Source: Escherichia coli
Lineage (GTDB): Bacteria; Pseudomonadota; Gammaproteobacteria; Enterobacterales; Enterobacteriaceae
Length of the DNA: 64,000 nt
Strand: one strand, 5' to 3'
Assembly: GCF_050320075.1 (NCBI RefSeq)
Contig: NZ_CP190018.1
Below, piece by piece: positions 5,388-61,432 of this stretch. The translations under genes and the position numbers were made by a program. Position 1 is the first letter of the stretch, and each line of letters opens with the position of its first letter. The notes under the pieces are model-generated. The model did no database searches and was not told the DNA's origin. It saw nothing but the letters and a program-made list of their open reading frames with translations.

Positions 5388-6494
5388 ATGTTTCATCGCT
5401 TATGGACGTTAATCCGCAAAGAGTTGCAGTCGCTGCTGCGCGAACCGCAAACCCGTGCGATTCTTATTTTACCCGTGCTGATTCAGGTGATCCTGTTCCC
5501 GTTCGCCGCCACGCTGGAAGTGACTAACGCCACCATCGCCATCTACGATGAAGATAACGGCGAGCATTCGGTGGAGCTGACCCAACGTTTTGCCCGCGCC
5601 AGCGCCTTTACTCATGTGCTGCTGCTGAAAAGCCCACAGGAGATCCGCCCAACCATCGACACACAAAAGGCGTTACTACTGGTGCGTTTCCCGGCTGACT
5701 TCTCGCGCAAACTGGATACCTTCCAGACCGCGCCGTTGCAGTTGATCCTCGACGGGCGTAACTCCAACAGTGCGCAAATTGCCGCCAACTACCTGCAACA
5801 GATCGTCAAAAATTATCAGCAGGAGCTGCTGGAAGGAAAACCGAAACCTAACAACAGCGAGCTGGTGGTACGCAACTGGTATAACCCGAATCTCGACTAC
5901 AAATGGTTTGTGGTGCCGTCGCTGATCGCCATGATCACCACTATCGGCGTAATGATCGTCACTTCACTTTCTGTTGCCCGCGAACGTGAACAAGGTACGC
6001 TCGATCAGCTACTGGTTTCGCCGCTCACCACCTGGCAGATCTTCATCGGCAAGGCCGTACCGGCATTAATTGTCGCCACCTTCCAGGCCACCATTGTGCT
6101 GGCGATTGGTATCTGGGCGTATCAAATCCCCTTCGCCGGATCGCTGGCGCTGTTCTACTTTACGATGGTGATTTACGGTTTATCGCTGGTGGGATTCGGT
6201 CTGTTGATTTCATCACTCTGCTCGACACAACAGCAGGCGTTTATCGGCGTGTTTGTTTTTATGATGCCCGCCATTCTCCTTTCCGGTTACGTTTCTCCGG
6301 TGGAAAACATGCCAGTATGGCTGCAAAACCTGACGTGGATTAACCCTATTCGCCACTTTACGGACATTACCAAGCAGATTTATTTGAAGGATGCGAGTCT
6401 GGATATTGTGTGGAATAGTTTGTGGCCGCTACTGGTGATAACGGCCACGACAGGGTCAGCGGCGTACGCGATGTTTAGACGTAAGGTGATGTAA
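5388..6494 (+). CDS. ybhR: ABC-2 type transporter permease YbhR
   Basis: 368 aa polytopic membrane protein paralogous to YbhS. Confidence 0.9.
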
Positions 6495-6866
6495 CTTCTT
6501 ATCTTTCGCCAGCAAAGACACCACCGCCGGGCCGGCAAGGATTGCCAGCCCTGCAATCGCCAGCAAAAAGTTGTTTTCCAGTACACGGGACAATAGCCAC
6601 AGCACAATCAGCGCTGCGCCAAAATACCAGGTCGTGGTCAGCTCTTCCAGCACGTCTGCCACCTCACGCCAGCGTTGCTCGGGGTGGCGCTGAAACACCA
6701 GCATCATCACTACCGTGACACAATACAGTGCGCATAATCCCACGCCGACGTGAACCAGAGTCTTACTCATCCAGCCCACCACCAGCAGCGCCACTACCAG
6801 TAAATGCAACATAATCTGCCAGCAACTTAGACCCGTTGCGACACGAACACGTTGTTGCCACTTCAT
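6456..6866 (-). CDS. ybhQ: inner membrane protein YbhQ
   Basis: 136 aa, four hydrophobic segments; convergent with ybhR, 3' ends overlap. Confidence 0.85.
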
Positions 6867-53045: not shown

Positions 53046-53627
53046 TCATGTCTTTTCTAAAAAAAATCTTGATGAATATTGATGGGGAGGAACACCAAAA
53101 TATCTTCTGAAAACACTTACAAAATATGACGTGTTTTCATAACCGCATATCTCAGCAACTTTTCCAACAGAATATAAATTGTAGCTTAATAACCTTTCCG
53201 CCATCACCATTCGCTCTTCAAGAATTAACTTACTAAATGATAAGCCTTCGTGCTTTAATTTTCTTTTTAACAGACTTTCACTCAGATACAGTCTTGAAGA
53301 TATATCACAAAGTCTCCATGCTGCAGATATATCCGTGTGAATAATAGCCTTAACTTTACTTCCTAAACTATTAAGACATCCAAATAAAAAACTTTGCACT
53401 ATTTTCTCTGAAGATAAGATAGCAAGACATGCAAGTGATATTTGATTTCTAACAAAATCCACAGTTCTGCCATCACAATTCAAGCATGCAATCAAGTTCT
53501 TTAACAATGAAAAATCTTCACATTCCACCATCAAGTATGCCGGATAAAACCTTCTTACAGAAAAAGGTGAGAGTGTGTTGCTTTTAAAGAAATCATTAAC
53601 TGTTTTCTCTTCAACATCTACGATCAT
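53046..53627 (-). CDS. short AraC/XylS-family transcriptional regulator (cargo between Q and S)
   Basis: 193 aa; C-terminal AraC-type HTH (VGKVAEICGYENTSYFVSVFRRYFGVPPHQY); very AT-rich gene and 500-bp AT-rich upstream region. Confidence 0.75.
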   Translation of the reverse strand: MIVDVEEKTVNDFFKSNTLSPFSVRRFYPAYLMVECEDFSLLKNLIACLNCDGRTVDFVRNQISLACLAILSSEKIVQSFLFGCLNSLGSKVKAIIHTDISAAWRLCDISSRLYLSESLLKRKLKHEGLSFSKLILEERMVMAERLLSYNLYSVGKVAEICGYENTSYFVSVFRRYFGVPPHQYSSRFFLEKT

Positions 53628-54121
53628 TGCATGATCTATATTTGATGAAAAAAATCTTTTAAATTTTAATCAATGAGAACAGCACTTCCTTTTTTAAATA
53701 AAATATCTTCTTTACCAATTCGGACATCAAACGAGTTCAACACCAAAATGATAGAACATATGTATGGCATATTATCCACCTGATATCATTGGGGTTACAC
53801 CAAGTAAGTATAGGTGGAAAATCAATATTCGCCAGTTCAACAATAAGGAAAATCTCATTGCATCACAAGTATAAAATTATGTATTTAACTCACAAAGACA
53901 AATTATTAAACCAATCTGTTATATTATATATAGCTGCGTGGAATCATAATATTATATATTTTGACTGGCATGTTTACCAACTTTAAGTTGCATCTCAATG
54001 GTTTCTTCAGCGTAAACAGAGTTTTTATACAAACTGACACTCTGGGTATCATAGTGTAGTTTTTACGATTGTAAATATCCTGCATGCAGGAACTCATCCT
54101 TTTGGATGATATCGCATACAA

Positions 54122-55081
54122 TTAATTTACCATCAGTCTTAGAGCCAGTTCGTCCGGATAGGGATCGAAGTAATTCTGTGTAAGCAAGTAATCATTAGGA
54201 TACTCACCCAGATAATGCTTCAGCAGAGTCAACGGCGCAAGAAGAGGTAATGTGCCAGAACGATAGTTAAGTATAACCTCGCTCAACTCTTTACGCTGGC
54301 GTGTACTTAAGTAGTTACTAAAATACCCCTGTATATGCATCATCACATTCGTGTGATTTTTACGTGATGCAGGTTTTCTGAGAATCGCCATCAGCTTATC
54401 ACGATACACCTCAAAGTATGATTCAAGGTCCGCCCACTCGTGTATTGCAGCCACAAATGGTCCCATATCTTTATAGCCTGCCTGACTATGCGCCAACAAC
54501 TGAAGCTTATAACGACTATGAAAAGCTAATAACTCTCTTCTTGATAATTTCTCCTTGTAAAGGTGATTGAGCTCATGCAAAGCAAAAACTCTTTCAACAA
54601 AATTCTCACGAAGCACTGGATCATGTAATCGCCCATCCTCTTCAACCGGTAGCCAGGAAAACTTTTCCATCAAAGTGCTCGTAAATAGTCCCACTCCATC
54701 TTTACGACCTCGATTACCATTTTCATCATAGACACGCACGCGCTCCATGCCACAGCTGGGAGATTTAGCACAAACCACAAACCCCGATACATCCTTTAAT
54801 TTGTCCATATAAGAACGACTAAACTCTGTCATTCTCTCTGTCACATCCTCATTCTGGTCGTGGCTGAAACACATCCGTATATTTCCTTGCGTCGAGCGCA
54901 CAAGACGTAGAGCAGGACGCGGAACTGGCAGCCCTATAGCCATTTCCGGACATACTGGTCTGAATGTTACCCATTCCACTAATTTGTCCATTAAAAAGTC
55001 AGCTCTTTTGTGACCACCATCAAAACGAACAGCAGAACCGGCCAGACAACCGCTGATTCCAATCACAGGTTTTTTTATCAT
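54122..55081 (-). CDS. DUF523 (TudS-like) / DUF1722 (YbgA-like) fusion protein
   Basis: 319 aa; N-terminus IGISGCLAGSAVRFDGGHK plus conserved Cys (CPEM, CAKSPSCGMERVRVY) resembles DUF523; C-terminal half resembles DUF1722; assignment from memory of family signatures. Confidence 0.6.
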   Translation of the reverse strand: MIKKPVIGISGCLAGSAVRFDGGHKRADFLMDKLVEWVTFRPVCPEMAIGLPVPRPALRLVRSTQGNIRMCFSHDQNEDVTERMTEFSRSYMDKLKDVSGFVVCAKSPSCGMERVRVYDENGNRGRKDGVGLFTSTLMEKFSWLPVEEDGRLHDPVLRENFVERVFALHELNHLYKEKLSRRELLAFHSRYKLQLLAHSQAGYKDMGPFVAAIHEWADLESYFEVYRDKLMAILRKPASRKNHTNVMMHIQGYFSNYLSTRQRKELSEVILNYRSGTLPLLAPLTLLKHYLGEYPNDYLLTQNYFDPYPDELALRLMVN

Positions 55082-55273
55082 ATCCTCCCCCTTGACTAAT
55101 TCATTAACACATAAACTGTGTAGTGCACGGAATAAATTGCCTTTCTGGCGTCATCACTGACAATTTTTCTGTTATGGACTATTCCTAATATAGTATGAAA
55201 GTTCTTTAAGTGATCGGTCGTAATCATCTATCTTTCATACTTACTCTCAACTATCAAAAGTACAGGATTTATT

Positions 55274-55798
55274 ATGAAGTTATGGCCTGTGTTGACTGGC
55301 ATTGCACTCTCTTTCACTCTTATAGCATGTAAGGCCCCGACACCACCTAAAGGTGTGCAGCCGATTACAAATTTTGACGCCAACCGCTACCTCGGAAAGT
55401 GGTATGAAATAGCTCGCCTCGAGAACCGGTTCGAACGTGGTCTGGAACAGGTCAGCGCTACTTATGGAAAACGGAACGACGGAGGGATTCGTGTACTTAA
55501 CCGTGGATACGATCCAACGAAAAATAAATGGAGCGAGAGCGAAGGTAAAGCATACTTTACTGGAGATACTAAAACTGCAGCGTTGAAGGTTTCGTTTTTT
55601 GGCCCCTTCTATGGTGGCTATAATGTAATCAAACTGGATGATGAGTATAAGTATGCTCTTGTCAGTGGTCCGAACAGAGAATACCTATGGATTCTGGCAA
55701 GGACCCCAACTATTCCAGATAAAGTAAAAGCAGACTATGTGCGAACCGCTCAAAAGTTGGGATTCAATGTCAATGAATTATTATGGGTTAAACAATAA
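55274..55798 (+). CDS. outer-membrane lipocalin, Blc-like lipoprotein
   Basis: 174 aa; lipobox LIAC, then NFDANRYLGKWYEIARLENRFERGLEQVSATY...KAYFTGDTKTAALKVSFFGPFYGGYNVI very similar to E. coli Blc; on the strand opposite to late genes. Confidence 0.85.
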   Translation: MKLWPVLTGIALSFTLIACKAPTPPKGVQPITNFDANRYLGKWYEIARLENRFERGLEQVSATYGKRNDGGIRVLNRGYDPTKNKWSESEGKAYFTGDTKTAALKVSFFGPFYGGYNVIKLDDEYKYALVSGPNREYLWILARTPTIPDKVKADYVRTAQKLGFNVNELLWVKQ

Positions 55799-55835
55799 AA
55801 TCCCTACCCGAAATAATACTTATTAGAATAAATAT

Positions 55836-55860
55836 CCTCCGGCATAGCCGGAGGTTTTTC
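55836..55860 (+). terminator. rho-independent terminator after the blc-like gene
   Basis: cctccggcatagccggagg followed by tttttc. Confidence 0.7.
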
Positions 55861-55869
55861 AAATGCGCC

Positions 55870-56570
55870 TATAAGGCTCTCTTACCAGCCGCGCCCTAAC
55901 AGGCGCACACGATCTGACATTTGCATCCAACTTCGTTACTTACGGCCCGTAAACGGGCTGCCCGGATAGGGAATCGATAACTGCTCTCCCATTTTATCCT
56001 CTTCAAGCTGGTGCTTTATGTAGTCCTGTATCTTCGCCGTGTTCTTACCCACCGTATCGACATAGTACCCTCGGCACCAGAACTCCCTGTTTCTGTATTT
56101 GAATTTCAAATCCCCAAACTGCTCGTAAAGCATCAGACTGCTTTTCCCTTTCAGATATCCCATAAAGCCGGATACGCTCATTTTGGGTGGGATTTCCACA
56201 AGCATATGGATATGATCTGCGCAGCACTCTGCTTCCAGAATCCGTACGCTTTTCCACTCACACAGCTTTCTCAAAATACTGCCTATCGCCCTACGCTTCT
56301 CTCCGTAAAACGCCAGTCTTCGGTATTTCGGCGCAAAAACTATGTGATATTTACAGTTCCAGCGGGTGTGCACTAAGCTCTTTTCGTCCCCCATTGGGAC
56401 CCCCTTTTGATTTCTTGTTTGACACTTGCAGTTGCCAGACCGCAAGGTGTTTTAACAAATCAAAAGGGGTTTTAATAACTGGCTCAAAGCTGAAAGCTTT
56501 CCGGAACCCCCAGCCTAGCTGGGGGTTTTCTGTGCACAAAAAAACCAGCCTTTGGGGAGGCTGGCTAAAT
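55870..56570 (-). mobile_element. IS200/IS605-family (IS200-like) insertion sequence; boundaries approximate
   Basis: HuH Y1 transposase gene flanked by subterminal hairpins (gcccgtaaacgggc at 55937-55950; cccccagcctagctggggg at 56508-56527; ccagcctttggggaggctgg at 56546-56565). Confidence 0.75.
55936..56394 (-). CDS. tnpA: IS200-family transposase TnpA (Y1 HuH)
   Basis: 152-aa product from MGDEKSLVHTRWNCKYHIVFAPKYRR with HxH motif (DHIHMLVEIPP) and catalytic Tyr region (RGYYVDTVG). Confidence 0.9.
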   Translation of the reverse strand: MGDEKSLVHTRWNCKYHIVFAPKYRRLAFYGEKRRAIGSILRKLCEWKSVRILEAECCADHIHMLVEIPPKMSVSGFMGYLKGKSSLMLYEQFGDLKFKYRNREFWCRGYYVDTVGKNTAKIQDYIKHQLEEDKMGEQLSIPYPGSPFTGRK

Positions 56571-56664
56571 CAGGAAACAAGCTGTTATATGATAATAACT
56601 ACGTTGCGATTCCAACATTTAAAATGTTAGACTAATGAGAATCAGACAGCAACTTTTCCTTTAA

Positions 56665-57057
56665 TTATTTCGAACAATCAGCATCCATCTCCAATCGGAG
56701 ATCCAACACCATCAGCATACCCTCCACTACGCCCTCAGCTTTCTGGAGCATCCTGCCAACCCAACAATCAGATCGCCCATGCTTACGTGCAAGCGCCATA
56801 AAAGTCATGCCGCCGACATAATAGTCCACCAATAAATCATGCAAATCGCTGTTGTTCTTTTTCAGACGGGCCATGCACCCGCAAATGATCATCGCGTCAT
56901 CGTCACAACATTGTGGGCGAGATTTTACTTTTGAAGGAATTAATCCCTTAAAACCGGCGGCAATGGACGACCAGGTCACATCTTCATGATTATTAGCCGC
57001 CCACGCTCCCCAACGCTCAAGAACCATCTGAATATCACGCATCAACTTACTCCACAA
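56665..57057 (-). CDS. Q: late gene antiterminator Q (QuuD-like)
   Basis: About 125-130 aa, [62 protein letters not shown] matches DLP12 QuuD; true start probably the internal Met at 57042. Confidence 0.88.
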
Positions 57058-59905: not shown

Positions 59906-61432
59906 TCAAAAATAAACCTCACCATCAACCATATATTTGAGAGTACTTATCGCCTGCTGGGCGGATATTATTTTCATTAAAGGATAGTGTTTAAAAACAA
60001 TGCCATTCATAAAATAGATATCACAGGTTTTATTATCTGTATTGATTATGATTTTTTCGAATGTTTTATAGGCAAGTGTACGACATAGCTCTCGCCCATT
60101 TTTACTGGTTAAGTCAATAGCATGAAAATCACCAAGTGAACTCACCGCTTTACTCTTCAAAGTTTTTAATGATACAGAAGCCCTTCGTAATTCCTTATCT
60201 AATACTCTGATTTTTTCTGCTATAGCGGTAACTTCAGGCGCAACAGATAATGCAGCAATTAAATTATTAATTTTCATCTGGAGCTCAATAATTTTCAACT
60301 CTAAAGTTTCATTAGCATCTTTCTTGTTTTCAACTGGTTGGATTTTACTACAATTAAAAAGCAACTCATTAATGATATTATAATCAACCAAATCTCTCTT
60401 TATTGATGGCCTGTCACATCGATGCAGTCTTCTCATCGGACAAACATAATAGCCATGCAAACTTCCAGATACCGCATGAACAATCATGGTATTACCACAA
60501 GCCTCGCACTTCATAACTGTTCGAAGTAGATTTATCAACATAGGATTTTTGCTACTATTGCTAATACCAAAAGGTGCCAACCGAATTTCCTGCACAGCGT
60601 AAAACAAATCATCTGATATGACTCTGGGATAATAGCCAGCGATTTCACTTATTCCTTTACCTCTTGCACGATATGAAGGTACGCATATACCTATCAGAGC
60701 TTTATTCGCTAATAATTTTTCAATTACAGAAGGTCCCCATGCACTTTCTTTTCCTGAGAAATTCTTTACAGCATGATCATTTAAATACTTGGCTATTGCA
60801 TTCAATGAGCGCCTTTCCATCCTGAGTTTAAAAATTAGCTCAATAGTTTTCACCCTGTCGGGGTCTGGAACAAAAGCCGTTCTTTTGTCATCCAATGAGA
60901 GCCATCTCGGACAAGACGCCGTCATAATCGTGCCTGACTCCAGTGCATCCTGCCGTTTTTTCTTCCATGATAATTTAACCCGACTTGACTTTATCTCGCT
61001 TTCTTCATTTGCCCTTTGTGCTATAAGTATGGCTTTTATTAATGAATATGGCTCATTCAATGAGTCAATATTATAGACTGTATTATCGCAAAGAGTTATA
61101 ACATCAATACCGTGATTCAAAATCAATTTCAGACGCTCAATCGCTTCACCGACTTTTTCTCTTGAAAGTCTGTCCAGACTTTCAACTAACAATGTAGTCC
61201 CTGGCAATATATAACCATGTTCTATAGCATCTAAAAATTCCGAAAAAGCTCCTGATTGTGCATGCTTTCCATTGAATGCGCTTAACCCCAAATCTTCATA
61301 CGTTACGGTATCAAGGTAATAATCACTATTTACCTTTAGCCATTCAGTAATAAGCCTTCTCTGGCGGTTTAATGAATCACCAGACATCTGACCTGGTGAT
61401 GAAAATCGCATATATGCTATGGCTTTTTTCAT
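59906..61432 (-). CDS. ybcK: large serine recombinase (YbcK-like)
   Basis: 508 aa; N-terminal resolvase/invertase catalytic domain (MKKAIAYMRFSSPGQ...SLNRQ), central recombinase domain and Cys-rich zinc-ribbon region (CEACGN...CPMRRLHRC). Confidence 0.88.
   Translation of the reverse strand: MKKAIAYMRFSSPGQMSGDSLNRQRRLITEWLKVNSDYYLDTVTYEDLGLSAFNGKHAQSGAFSEFLDAIEHGYILPGTTLLVESLDRLSREKVGEAIERLKLILNHGIDVITLCDNTVYNIDSLNEPYSLIKAILIAQRANEESEIKSSRVKLSWKKKRQDALESGTIMTASCPRWLSLDDKRTAFVPDPDRVKTIELIFKLRMERRSLNAIAKYLNDHAVKNFSGKESAWGPSVIEKLLANKALIGICVPSYRARGKGISEIAGYYPRVISDDLFYAVQEIRLAPFGISNSSKNPMLINLLRTVMKCEACGNTMIVHAVSGSLHGYYVCPMRRLHRCDRPSIKRDLVDYNIINELLFNCSKIQPVENKKDANETLELKIIELQMKINNLIAALSVAPEVTAIAEKIRVLDKELRRASVSLKTLKSKAVSSLGDFHAIDLTSKNGRELCRTLAYKTFEKIIINTDNKTCDIYFMNGIVFKHYPLMKIISAQQAISTLKYMVDGEVYF

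What the first reader, a model, noticed from the sequence alone, without database searches (positions are those of the whole stretch)
55870..56570. IS200-like element inserted just downstream of Q, in the leader of the late operon
An IS200/IS605-family element with an intact Y1 transposase gene lies roughly 100 bp past the Q stop codon, where pR', qut and tR' are expected in lambdoid phages. On the late-transcript strand it presents stable hairpins followed by T runs (for example ccagcctccccaaaggctgg then ttttttt, + strand 56539-56565). I cannot tell from sequence whether these are the phage tR' terminator or IS200 structures. The insertion may change late-gene expression and prophage inducibility, or it may have delivered the adjacent cargo.
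Basis: partly seen in the sequence, partly recalled or inferred. Interest (0 to 1): 0.45.

Follow-up and report, generated by a model that had tools for sequence, protein, structure and literature searches.

The report
IS200 parked behind phage late terminator
A 711-bp IS200 insertion sequence sits exactly at the end of the terminator that follows the Q antiterminator gene of a lambda-like E. coli prophage; it is an ordinary, already annotated mobile element that landed where IS200 habitually lands, and it neither broke the phage control region nor brought in the neighbouring genes.

Summary
A complete IS200 lies at window 55827-56537 on the minus strand. It has an intact 152-aa Y1/HUH transposase and is 711/711 identical to a copy at an unrelated E. 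coli locus. It begins 127 nt past the Q stop codon.

The hairpin it quoted (56543-56566, then T7 at 56538-56544) is native phage DNA and is the tR'-like terminator. IS200 abuts the last T of that run, with no target duplication. The other two hairpins (56505-56527 and 55836-55854) belong to IS200.

The lipocalin/YbgA/AraC cargo is present at empty sites, so the IS did not deliver it. The element still lies inside the pR'-to-S transcription unit.

The position follows from IS200's target habit. Of 153 distinct IS200-type insertion sites, 123 abut a terminator-like hairpin plus T-run, against 0.7% of random positions. Three different IS200 variants occupy this same nucleotide in three genomes, so it is a recurrent target.

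The effect on late genes was not tested. I predict it is small, because Q-loaded polymerase ignores terminator hairpins. This is an ordinary, already annotated feature.

The parts
56665..57042 (-). Q antiterminator gene of the Q21/Q933W family (125 aa as annotated; an upstream TTG at 57057 would give 130 aa)
   Evidence: Pfam Phage_antitermQ (PF06530), E 2.5e-51. Matches Q21 structures 6P18/6JNX at E 1.9e-8. RefSeq annotation.
56567..56664 (-). Leader where pR' and the sigma-dependent pause / Q-binding elements are expected; not mapped
   Evidence: There are only consensus-level promoter matches, e.g. TGGAGA-18-AATAAT at 56693-56664. By eye, TTGCTG-17-TAACAT is another candidate. The region is identical in the IS-free phage IdasGreatGrand apart from 1 nt. 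The function is inferred from the standard Q cassette layout (bioRxiv 10.1101/651190).
56538..56566 (-). Native phage intrinsic terminator (tR'-like): 9-bp stem at 56566-56543, then T7 at 56544-56538
   Evidence: Terminator scan. Folds at -14.2 kcal/mol, z -2.5. Present unchanged at empty sites. The tR' role is inferred from its position 100-127 nt after the Q stop codon.
55827..56537 (-). IS200 element, 711 bp; no terminal inverted repeats and no target-site duplication
   Evidence: Empty site TTTTTTT|CTAATAAG in IdasGreatGrand against TTTTTTT|GTGCAC...ATATTTATT|CTAATAAG here. It is 711/711 identical to the copy downstream of nuoN in strain B1.H1.39.
56505..56527 (-). IS200 left-end hairpin (IS nt ~11-33), described in the literature as a bidirectional terminator against impinging transcription
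   Evidence: Folds at -19.0 kcal/mol on the minus strand and -22.1 on the plus strand. First stem of the Rfam STnc490 match. Role taken from PMC4513863 and PMC5435999 (nt 12-34; stops about 85% of upstream transcripts).
56400..56469 (-). [quoted passage not shown]
   Evidence: Lies within the Rfam STnc490 match. Coordinates were transferred from IS200 nt 69-138 in PMC4513863. Inferred by homology.
55936..56394 (-). tnpA, intact 152-aa Y1/HUH transposase
   Evidence: HUH at residues 61-63 and Y125 present.
56386..56475 (+). [quoted passage not shown]
   Evidence: Placed only by transferring the description in PMC4513863. Not tested here.
55836..55854 (-). IS200 right-end subterminal hairpin CCTCCGGCTATGCCGGAGG, followed by ATATTTATT, the last bases of the IS
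   Evidence: Folds at -15.9 kcal/mol. On the + strand it is followed by TTTTT and scores as a terminator facing the lipocalin gene. It is conserved at the right end of other copies.
55274..55798 (+). Context, not part of the IS: Blc-type lipocalin gene, convergent with late transcription. It is the first gene of the lipocalin/YbgA/AraC cargo that precedes the lysis genes.
   Evidence: Pfam Lipocalin_2. NCBIfam Blc subfamily, E 5e-95. Present at IS-free sites.

Best explanation
Context (shown). The window carries a roughly 49.8-kb lambda-like prophage at the lambda attachment site, between ybhC and ybhB. It is oriented on the minus strand.

What is there (shown). The Q gene is followed by a short leader and a native intrinsic terminator, a hairpin plus seven T. 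A complete 711-bp IS200 has inserted immediately 3' of the last T. It lies in the same orientation as late transcription, made no target duplication and left Q, the leader and the terminator untouched.

How it got there (partly shown). IS200-type elements insert 3' of a T-rich pentanucleotide, consensus TTnTT. In practice that site is almost always the T-run of a GC-rich terminator hairpin. The phage terminator is simply a very good target, and three different IS200 variants have each hit it.

Consequence (inferred). In the lysogen, pR' transcripts stop at the native terminator as before. Any read-through then meets the IS200 left-end hairpin. After induction, Q-loaded RNA polymerase blocks RNA hairpin formation, so it should traverse the extra 711 nt and its hairpins and reach the lysis and morphogenesis genes. 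On this reasoning the insertion is a near-neutral passenger in a 'safe harbour', not a regulator of the late operon and not the vehicle of the cargo genes.
For: Identity of the IS.

Exact boundaries, no duplication and an intact terminator: the empty site in phage IdasGreatGrand, and the T8 allele in Lambda_ev058.

Frequency of the empty site: it is uninterrupted in 1,089 of 5,426 complete E. coli genomes and in 42 of 80 IMG/VR loci with this Q. Only 3 genomes carry the IS here.

Cargo present without the IS.

Target habit: 123 of 153 distinct IS200-type left flanks abut a perfect-stem hairpin plus T tail, against 34 of 5,000 random positions. The flanks came from viral contigs and from Yersinia, Vibrio, Mailhella, Bacillota and other genomes. 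T frequency is 96/85/59/98/91% at positions -5 to -1. Mean flank folding energy is -17.7 against -6.7 kcal/mol for controls. E. coli chromosomal copies sit after the nuoN terminator and after a hairpin plus T8 in the aas-galR intergenic region.

Recurrence: the copies at this site in Ec-U3, 22AH104 and CB7286 differ at 9 and 23 positions. Each is 100% identical to copies at other loci in other genomes. CB7286 carries the T8 flank allele.

Tolerance in antiterminated operons: two deposited phage genomes carry a full IS200 directly after the lambda tR2 terminator, co-oriented with the pR operon.

Q mechanism: Q21-family Q forms a nozzle that prevents terminator hairpins and acts over tens of kilobases (10.1101/651190).

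Prophage condition: it is otherwise annotated as complete.
Against: No expression or induction data exist for this strain, so neutrality is a prediction.

IS200 was first found as a polar insertion, and its left-end hairpin stops about 85% of ordinary transcripts (PMC4513863 and PMC5435999).

pR', the pause element and the Q-binding site are not mapped for this Q subtype. Calling the hairpin 'tR'' therefore rests on position and shape. In more distant Q alleles with other leaders, my scans gave no clear terminator.

No virion-derived genome carries IS200 at this particular site: 0 of 50,697 phage records and 0 of the IMG/VR loci.

The two relatives with the IS show decay elsewhere in the prophage. 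22AH104 has a frameshifted rusA. CB7286 has an IS2 and a truncated ybcO-type (DUF1364) gene.

At about 49.8 kb, the prophage is near the upper packaging size for lambda (that limit is from my own knowledge).

Gene conversion between IS copies could mimic independent insertions.
Confidence: 0.8

Rival explanations
1. Polar insertion. IS200 blocks or strongly reduces late transcription between pR' and the lysis genes. The prophage would then be crippled and on its way to becoming cryptic.
For: The IS lies inside the pR'-S unit. The IS200 left-end hairpin terminates about 85% of impinging transcripts, and IS200 was discovered as a polar hisD mutation (PMC4513863 and PMC5435999). The occupied site is rare, in 3 genomes against 1,089 empty. 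No phage record has it. The prophages in 22AH104 and CB7286 carry other lesions.
Against: Q-loaded polymerase prevents terminator hairpin formation whatever the sequence (10.1101/651190). The IS200 hairpins have ordinary 8-10-bp stems. Phage genomes with IS200 right after tR2, inside the N-antiterminated operon, have been deposited as phages. All structural and lysis genes of this prophage are annotated intact.
Confidence: 0.12
2. Induction-coupled IS. Sitting behind a Q-controlled terminator, IS200 has its protective left-end terminator overridden during prophage induction. tnpA would then be transcribed as part of the late mRNA while replicating phage DNA supplies single strands. That would favour transposition and phage-borne spread.
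For: tnpA is co-oriented with late transcription and lies directly behind the terminator. Insertion recurs at phage antitermination-controlled terminators: tR' by three variants and tR2 in two phages. Identical copies occur across unrelated genomes. The family transposes through single-stranded DNA (PMC2806898).
Against: Co-orientation follows automatically from the target rule, so it needs no selective explanation. Translation of tnpA remains blocked by the SD-sequestering stem and by art200/Hfq, independently of transcription (PMC4513863). IS200 is very rare in sequenced phages, in 2 of 50,697 records.
Confidence: 0.08
3. The IS200 delivered, or is mobilising, the adjacent lipocalin/YbgA/AraC cargo.
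For: Only adjacency.
Against: The same cargo with the same junction is present with no IS in phages IdasGreatGrand and Lambda_ev058 and in 1,089 E. coli genomes. The IS ends are precisely defined at 711 bp and exclude the cargo. There is only one IS200 copy in the window, so no composite structure is possible.
Confidence: 0.01

Closest known systems
IS200 of Salmonella / IS200C-type copies of E. coli (IS200/IS605 family, IS200 group)
   Same: About 707-711 bp, with a single 152-aa Y1 transposase carrying HUH and Y125. The left end has a terminator hairpin at nt ~12-34, an SD-sequestering stem and the STnc490/art200 region. The right end has its own hairpin. There are no inverted repeats and no target duplication. 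Identical copies occur at other E. coli loci.
   Different: Nothing structural. This copy differs at 23 positions from the variant RefSeq names IS200C. Only the insertion site is particular.
IS1541 of Yersinia pestis
   Same: The left-end hairpin is the same, and nearly all Y. pestis copies in my scan abut terminator-like hairpins plus T-runs. From memory, Odaert et al. 1998 (J Bacteriol 180:178) reported terminator-like stem-loops at 8 of 14 IS1541 sites and proposed them as hot spots. That paper is not held in the library. IS1541 also lies between pheL and pheA (PMC3082878).
   Different: Different host and sequence variant: the left end starts GTGCCCAGAA rather than GTGCACAGAA. It is not described in a phage late leader.
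IS608 / ISDra2 (mechanistic paradigms of the family)
   Same: Homologous TnpA. They insert 3' of a short specific sequence, make no duplication and have subterminal hairpins at both ends (PMC2806898 and PMC4227781).
   Different: They carry tnpB, and their targets are TTAC and TTGAT without an adjacent hairpin requirement. Here the T-rich target is almost always the tail of a hairpin.
Lambdoid Q - pR' - pause element - tR' - late genes cassette (Q21/Q933W family)
   Same: A Q gene of Pfam PF06530 is followed within 100-127 nt by an intrinsic terminator, then cargo and lysis genes.
   Different: The promoter, pause element and Q-binding element are not identified for this Q subtype, which is about 35% identical to Q21 over the aligned part. 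The late unit now carries a 711-bp IS right after the terminator.
Group IIC (bacterial class C) introns
   Same: From my own knowledge only: these mobile elements home to the 3' side of intrinsic terminator hairpins. It is a comparable 'safe harbour' strategy.
   Different: They are retroelements with a ribozyme and reverse transcriptase. They have no sequence or mechanistic relation to a Y1 transposase. Not tested here.

Membership tests
IS200/IS605 family, IS200 group | Encodes a Y1 (HUH, single catalytic tyrosine) transposase | tested here: met
   Pfam Y1_Tnp at 126.5 bits against a cutoff of 23. NCBIfam equivalog transpos_IS200 at 143.2 bits against a cutoff of 55. PDB relatives 2EC2, 2A6M, 2VHG and 2XM3. 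H61-I-H63 and Y125 are present.
IS200/IS605 family, IS200 group | No terminal inverted repeats; different subterminal hairpins at the left and right ends | tested here: met
   The left-end hairpin is at 56505-56527 and the right-end hairpin at 55836-55854. Their sequences differ.
IS200/IS605 family, IS200 group | No target-site duplication; inserts 3' of a short T-rich target that stays outside the element at the left end | tested here: met
   Empty site against occupied site. Target logo TTnTT from 155 distinct flanks.
IS200/IS605 family, IS200 group | About 700 bp with tnpA as the only gene (no tnpB) | tested here: met
   711 bp, with one ORF carrying family hits.
IS200/IS605 family, IS200 group | Left-end RNA elements (terminator hairpin, 5'UTR stem-loop, STnc490/art200 region) | tested here: met
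   Rfam RF01405 matched over its full length at 146.4 bits against a gathering score of 56. The anatomy agrees with PMC4513863.
IS200/IS605 family, IS200 group | Transposition through single-stranded intermediates; current activity of this copy | not testable with these tools
   The only evidence is indirect. Identical 711-bp copies occur at unrelated loci, and three variants occupy this same site.
Lambdoid Q-dependent late regulatory cassette | Q antiterminator gene | tested here: met
   PF06530 at 173 bits. Q21 structures matched at E 1.9e-8.
Lambdoid Q-dependent late regulatory cassette | pR' promoter with a sigma-dependent pause element and a Q-binding element just downstream of Q | tested here: inconclusive
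   Only weak consensus matches were found. The leader is conserved among close relatives but was not informative across distant alleles.
Lambdoid Q-dependent late regulatory cassette | Intrinsic terminator between pR' and the late genes | tested here: met
   A hairpin plus T7 lies 100-127 nt after the Q stop codon and is native to the phage. Termination activity itself is not testable here.
Lambdoid Q-dependent late regulatory cassette | Lysis and morphogenesis genes downstream on the same strand | tested here: met
   essD, rrrD and rzpD lie at window 52852-51679, followed by terminase through to tail fibres.

The most novel reading that the evidence does not exclude
IS200's near-obligate homing to the 3' edge of intrinsic terminators repeatedly parks it behind the antitermination-controlled terminators of lambdoid phages. 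Here that is tR', apparently hit independently by three IS200 variants. In two sequenced phages it is tR2.

Only in such positions is its self-protective left-end terminator overridden, because Q- or N-modified polymerase reads through. tnpA would then be transcribed during prophage induction, just when replicating phage DNA supplies single-stranded targets.

The result would be an induction-coupled route for transposition and for phage-borne spread of IS200. A related open point is whether TnpA recognises terminator hairpins because they mimic the element's own right end (hairpin plus TTATT).
Probability: 0.1. Interest if true: 0.5.

Novelty: already known. Interest (0 to 1): 0.2.

Why it matters
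For this window it matters little. The feature is an annotated IS200 copy in a common E. coli prophage. The phage's Q/terminator module is intact, and the cargo genes are native to the phage lineage.

The check also shows why the IS sits where it does. IS200-type elements across several phyla land at the last T of terminator-like hairpins in about 80% of sites. That sharpens an older observation on IS1541. It makes phage regulatory terminators predictable, recurrent IS200 targets.

If the insertion did affect late transcription, this strain and its 1,089 empty-site relatives would be a ready natural comparison.

Tried and rejected
1. Cargo delivery by the IS. Rejected on the evidence of empty sites.

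2. A longer IS variant. Other E. coli IS200 copies appeared to match up to 27 nt beyond the left end, which might have meant a longer mobile unit that includes the hairpin. Fetching two such loci showed unrelated terminators with only chance T-run similarity.

3. Shared ancestry against independent insertion, judged from divergence of IS and flanks. This was inconclusive alone. It was settled in favour of recurrence by showing that each variant has identical copies elsewhere and that CB7286 has a different flank allele. Gene conversion is still not excluded.

4. Assembly breaks as hidden insertions. IMG/VR contigs ending about 155 nt after the Q stop codon looked like breaks at an IS. They are empty sites.

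5. Mapping pR' and confirming a terminator at a conserved distance in more distant Q alleles. The simple scans were uninformative.

6. Literature on terminator targeting by IS200. Nothing explicit was found in the held library. Odaert 1998 and Beuzon 1997 are not held.

7. A quuD/DLP12 literature search for the late promoter gave nothing usable.

Full report
**Context.** The window matches the chromosome of E. coli Ec-U3 (NZ_CM192149.1): the 901-bp stretch around the IS is 100% identical and the flanking gene coordinates coincide. From about window 23,800 to beyond 64,000 it carries a lambda-like prophage of roughly 49.8 kb. The prophage is integrated between ybhC and ybhB/bioA and lies on the minus strand. 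The gene order is int/xis, exo-bet-gam, repressor, O/P-like genes, ren, nin region, Q, cargo, lysis genes, terminase, head, tail and tail fibres. All are annotated intact except an AraC-like gene (frameshift) and a P22AR fragment. Q (56665-57042, minus strand) belongs to Pfam PF06530, the Q21/Q933W family. It matches the solved Q21 structures at E 1.9e-8.

- The ORF at 55936-56394 (minus strand) is an intact 152-aa Y1 transposase. It matches Pfam Y1_Tnp at E 7.9e-37, the NCBIfam equivalog transpos_IS200 at E 4.8e-42, and PDB relatives including IS608 and ISDra2 TnpA. The HUH motif at residues 61-63 and Y125 are present.
- Rfam's STnc490 model, which covers the IS200 left end and 5'UTR, matches 56404-56527 over its full length at 146 bits.
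- Full-length copies of this element occur in 2,063 of 5,426 complete E. coli genomes.
- The window holds a single copy.

**Exact ends, and which hairpin belongs to whom.** Phage IdasGreatGrand (PP925829) has the same Q, leader, lipocalin, YbgA-like and AraC-like genes but no IS.
- On the late-transcript strand its junction reads ...CCAGCCTCCCCAAAGGCTGG TTTTTTT CTAATAAG...
- The window reads ...GGCTGG TTTTTTT | GTGCACAGAAAACCCCC ... GGAGGATATTTATT | CTAATAAG....
- The inserted segment is therefore 55827-56537, 711 bp. It carries a 2-nt ambiguity and made no target duplication.
- The quoted hairpin and its T7 (56566-56538) are native phage DNA and remain intact.
- The two other strong hairpins are IS200's own. 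The left-end hairpin lies at 56505-56527 (-19 kcal/mol). The right-end hairpin lies at 55836-55854 (-15.9 kcal/mol).
- Their positions agree with the published anatomy: terminator hairpin at nt 12-34, transcription start near nt 40, SD-sequestering stem at nt 69-138, and art200 antisense RNA (PMC4513863).

**Is the native hairpin tR'?** It lies 100-127 nt after the Q stop codon, where the standard Q cassette places its terminator (10.1101/651190). It has a 9-bp stem and a 7-T tail. It is invariant in 1,089 E. coli genomes and in 42 IMG/VR loci with this leader. I could not map pR', the pause element or the Q-binding element. Only weak consensus matches exist, and more distant Q alleles have unrelated leaders that my scans did not resolve. 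The tR' label is a well-supported positional inference, not a demonstrated function.

**Cargo.** The lipocalin (Blc subfamily), YbgA-like and AraC-like genes lie between the terminator and the holin in IS-free phages and genomes, with an identical junction. The IS did not bring them.

**Why the IS is exactly here.** I scanned IMG/VR and one-genome-per-species collections for the IS200 left-end hairpin.
- Among 153 distinct upstream flanks, 123 (80%) have a perfect-stem GC-rich hairpin plus T-rich tail ending exactly at the IS. Random positions in the same loci gave 34 of 5,000 (0.7%).
- In a rerun of this survey that also took in two chromosomal E. coli copies (155 flanks), the last five flank bases are T at 96, 85, 59, 98 and 91%.
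- In the same rerun, mean folding energy of the 40-nt flank is -17.7 against -6.7 kcal/mol for controls.
- The pattern holds in Yersinia pestis, Vibrio, Brenneria, Mailhella, Oxalobacter and Bacillota assemblies.
- E. coli chromosomal copies follow the nuoN terminator and a hairpin plus T8 in the aas-galR intergenic region.
- The element's own right end (hairpin plus ATATTTATT) resembles the target, and tandem copies sit directly after another copy's right end.
- The T-rich target, the absence of a duplication and specificity at the left end only are family traits (PMC4227781 and PMC2806898).
- From memory, Odaert et al. 1998 already noted terminator-like stem-loops at 8 of 14 IS1541 sites. 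I could not read that paper here. I therefore treat the pattern as a sharpening of known behaviour, not a discovery.

**Recurrence at this site.** Only three genomes have the IS here: Ec-U3, 22AH104 and CB7286 (the last deposited twice). The empty site occurs in 1,089 genomes.
- The three copies differ at 9 and 23 positions.
- Each is 711/711 identical to copies at unrelated loci in other genomes.
- CB7286 carries the T8 allele of the flank, with one T left downstream of the IS.
- Independent insertions at the same nucleotide are the simplest reading. Gene conversion between IS copies is not excluded.

**Likely consequence.** tnpA is inside the pR'-to-S unit and co-oriented with it. That orientation follows automatically from the target rule.
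- Ordinary transcripts from pR' should stop at the native terminator as before. The IS200 left-end hairpin, reported to stop about 85% of impinging transcripts (PMC5435999), would add a second barrier.
- Q-loaded polymerase sterically prevents terminator hairpins and acts over tens of kilobases. The 8-10-bp IS200 stems should not stop it.
- Two deposited phage genomes, Lambda_ev058 and PhiR63_2, carry a full IS200 directly after lambda tR2 inside the N-antiterminated operon. This shows such insertions are compatible with a phage genome.
- I therefore predict a near-neutral passenger.
- The prediction is untested. No phage record has the IS at the tR' site. The occupied site is rare. The two relatives show other prophage lesions. 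At about 49.8 kb the genome is close to lambda's upper packaging size (that limit is my own knowledge).
- One side effect can be read directly from the sequence. On the plus strand the right-end hairpin is followed by TTTTT, 38 nt after the lipocalin stop codon. It gives that convergent gene a terminator-like site it lacks at empty sites.

**Verdict.** IS200 in the late leader is correct. The ambiguity about the hairpins is resolved: one is the phage terminator and two are IS200 structures. Cargo delivery is refuted. An effect on late expression is unproven and probably small. The feature is already annotated and of a well-known kind, so interest is low. The terminator-homing statistics and the three-fold reuse of this site are the only points worth carrying forward.

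Noticed in passing
Loci L003-L182 (left flanks of IS200-type elements); window 56538-56566: IS200-type elements from several phyla sit at the last T of a terminator-like hairpin plus T-run in 123 of 153 distinct sites, against 0.7% of random positions. The target logo is TTnTT. The IS right end (hairpin plus ATATTTATT) resembles the target, and tandem copies follow another copy's right end (L057, L127, L129).
   Followed up: yes
window 55827-56537; L059 1526-2236; L060 1528-2238: Three different IS200 sequence variants occupy the identical nucleotide behind this terminator in three genomes. Each is 100% identical to copies at other loci elsewhere. CB7286 has a T8 rather than a T7 flank allele. 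This suggests recurrent independent insertion, although gene conversion is not excluded.
   Followed up: yes
L003 about 5800-6500 (Lambda_ev058); L004 about 5650-6360 (PhiR63_2); L018 about 6700: The only two true phage genomes with IS200 among 50,697 records carry it directly after the lambda tR2 terminator, co-oriented with the pR operon. One IMG/VR contig (L018) has it on the opposite strand of the same hairpin.
   Followed up: partly
L016 and L017, 1264-1694: A roughly 430-bp IS200 derivative has normal left and right ends but no tnpA, so it resembles a miniature non-autonomous element. It lies about 50 nt after a distant Q-family gene (28% identity), again right after a hairpin plus T7. 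In L037/L038/L045/L047 a full IS200 lies about 1 kb downstream of an 82%-identical Q, after a 186-aa ORF.
   Followed up: partly
window 53046-55798: A cargo module lies between the terminator and the holin gene: a Blc-type lipocalin (+ strand), a DUF523/DUF1722 YbgA-like gene and an AraC-family gene. The uninterrupted lipocalin-terminator-Q junction occurs in 1,089 of 5,426 complete E. coli genomes, and the three-gene module is also seen in phages IdasGreatGrand and Lambda_ev058. The AraC-like gene is frameshifted in this window (53046-53770) but is a 732-bp intact ORF in IdasGreatGrand.
   Followed up: partly
window 56404-56527 (-): The Rfam STnc490 model matches the tnpA-sense strand and includes the left-end terminator hairpin. 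The literature describes STnc490/art200 as the RNA antisense to the tnpA 5'UTR. The strand of the Rfam family may need checking.
   Followed up: no
window about 59906-62020 (-); L058 9704-11305: The nin region carries an emrE-type SMR transporter gene and a ybcK-type serine recombinase gene, as RefSeq annotates for Ec-U3. Just outside the window, a SIR2-family gene lies next to the repressor and may be a defence gene.
   Followed up: no
L227, about 310-337 nt after the Q stop codon: In one IMG/VR prophage the same terminator hairpin lies 310 nt after the Q stop codon instead of 100 nt. This implies an extra segment of about 210 bp inside the late leader.
   Followed up: no
window 55836-55859 (+): On the plus strand the IS200 right-end hairpin is followed by TTTTT, 38 nt after the lipocalin stop codon. 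The insertion thus gives that convergent gene a terminator-like site that empty sites lack.
   Followed up: no
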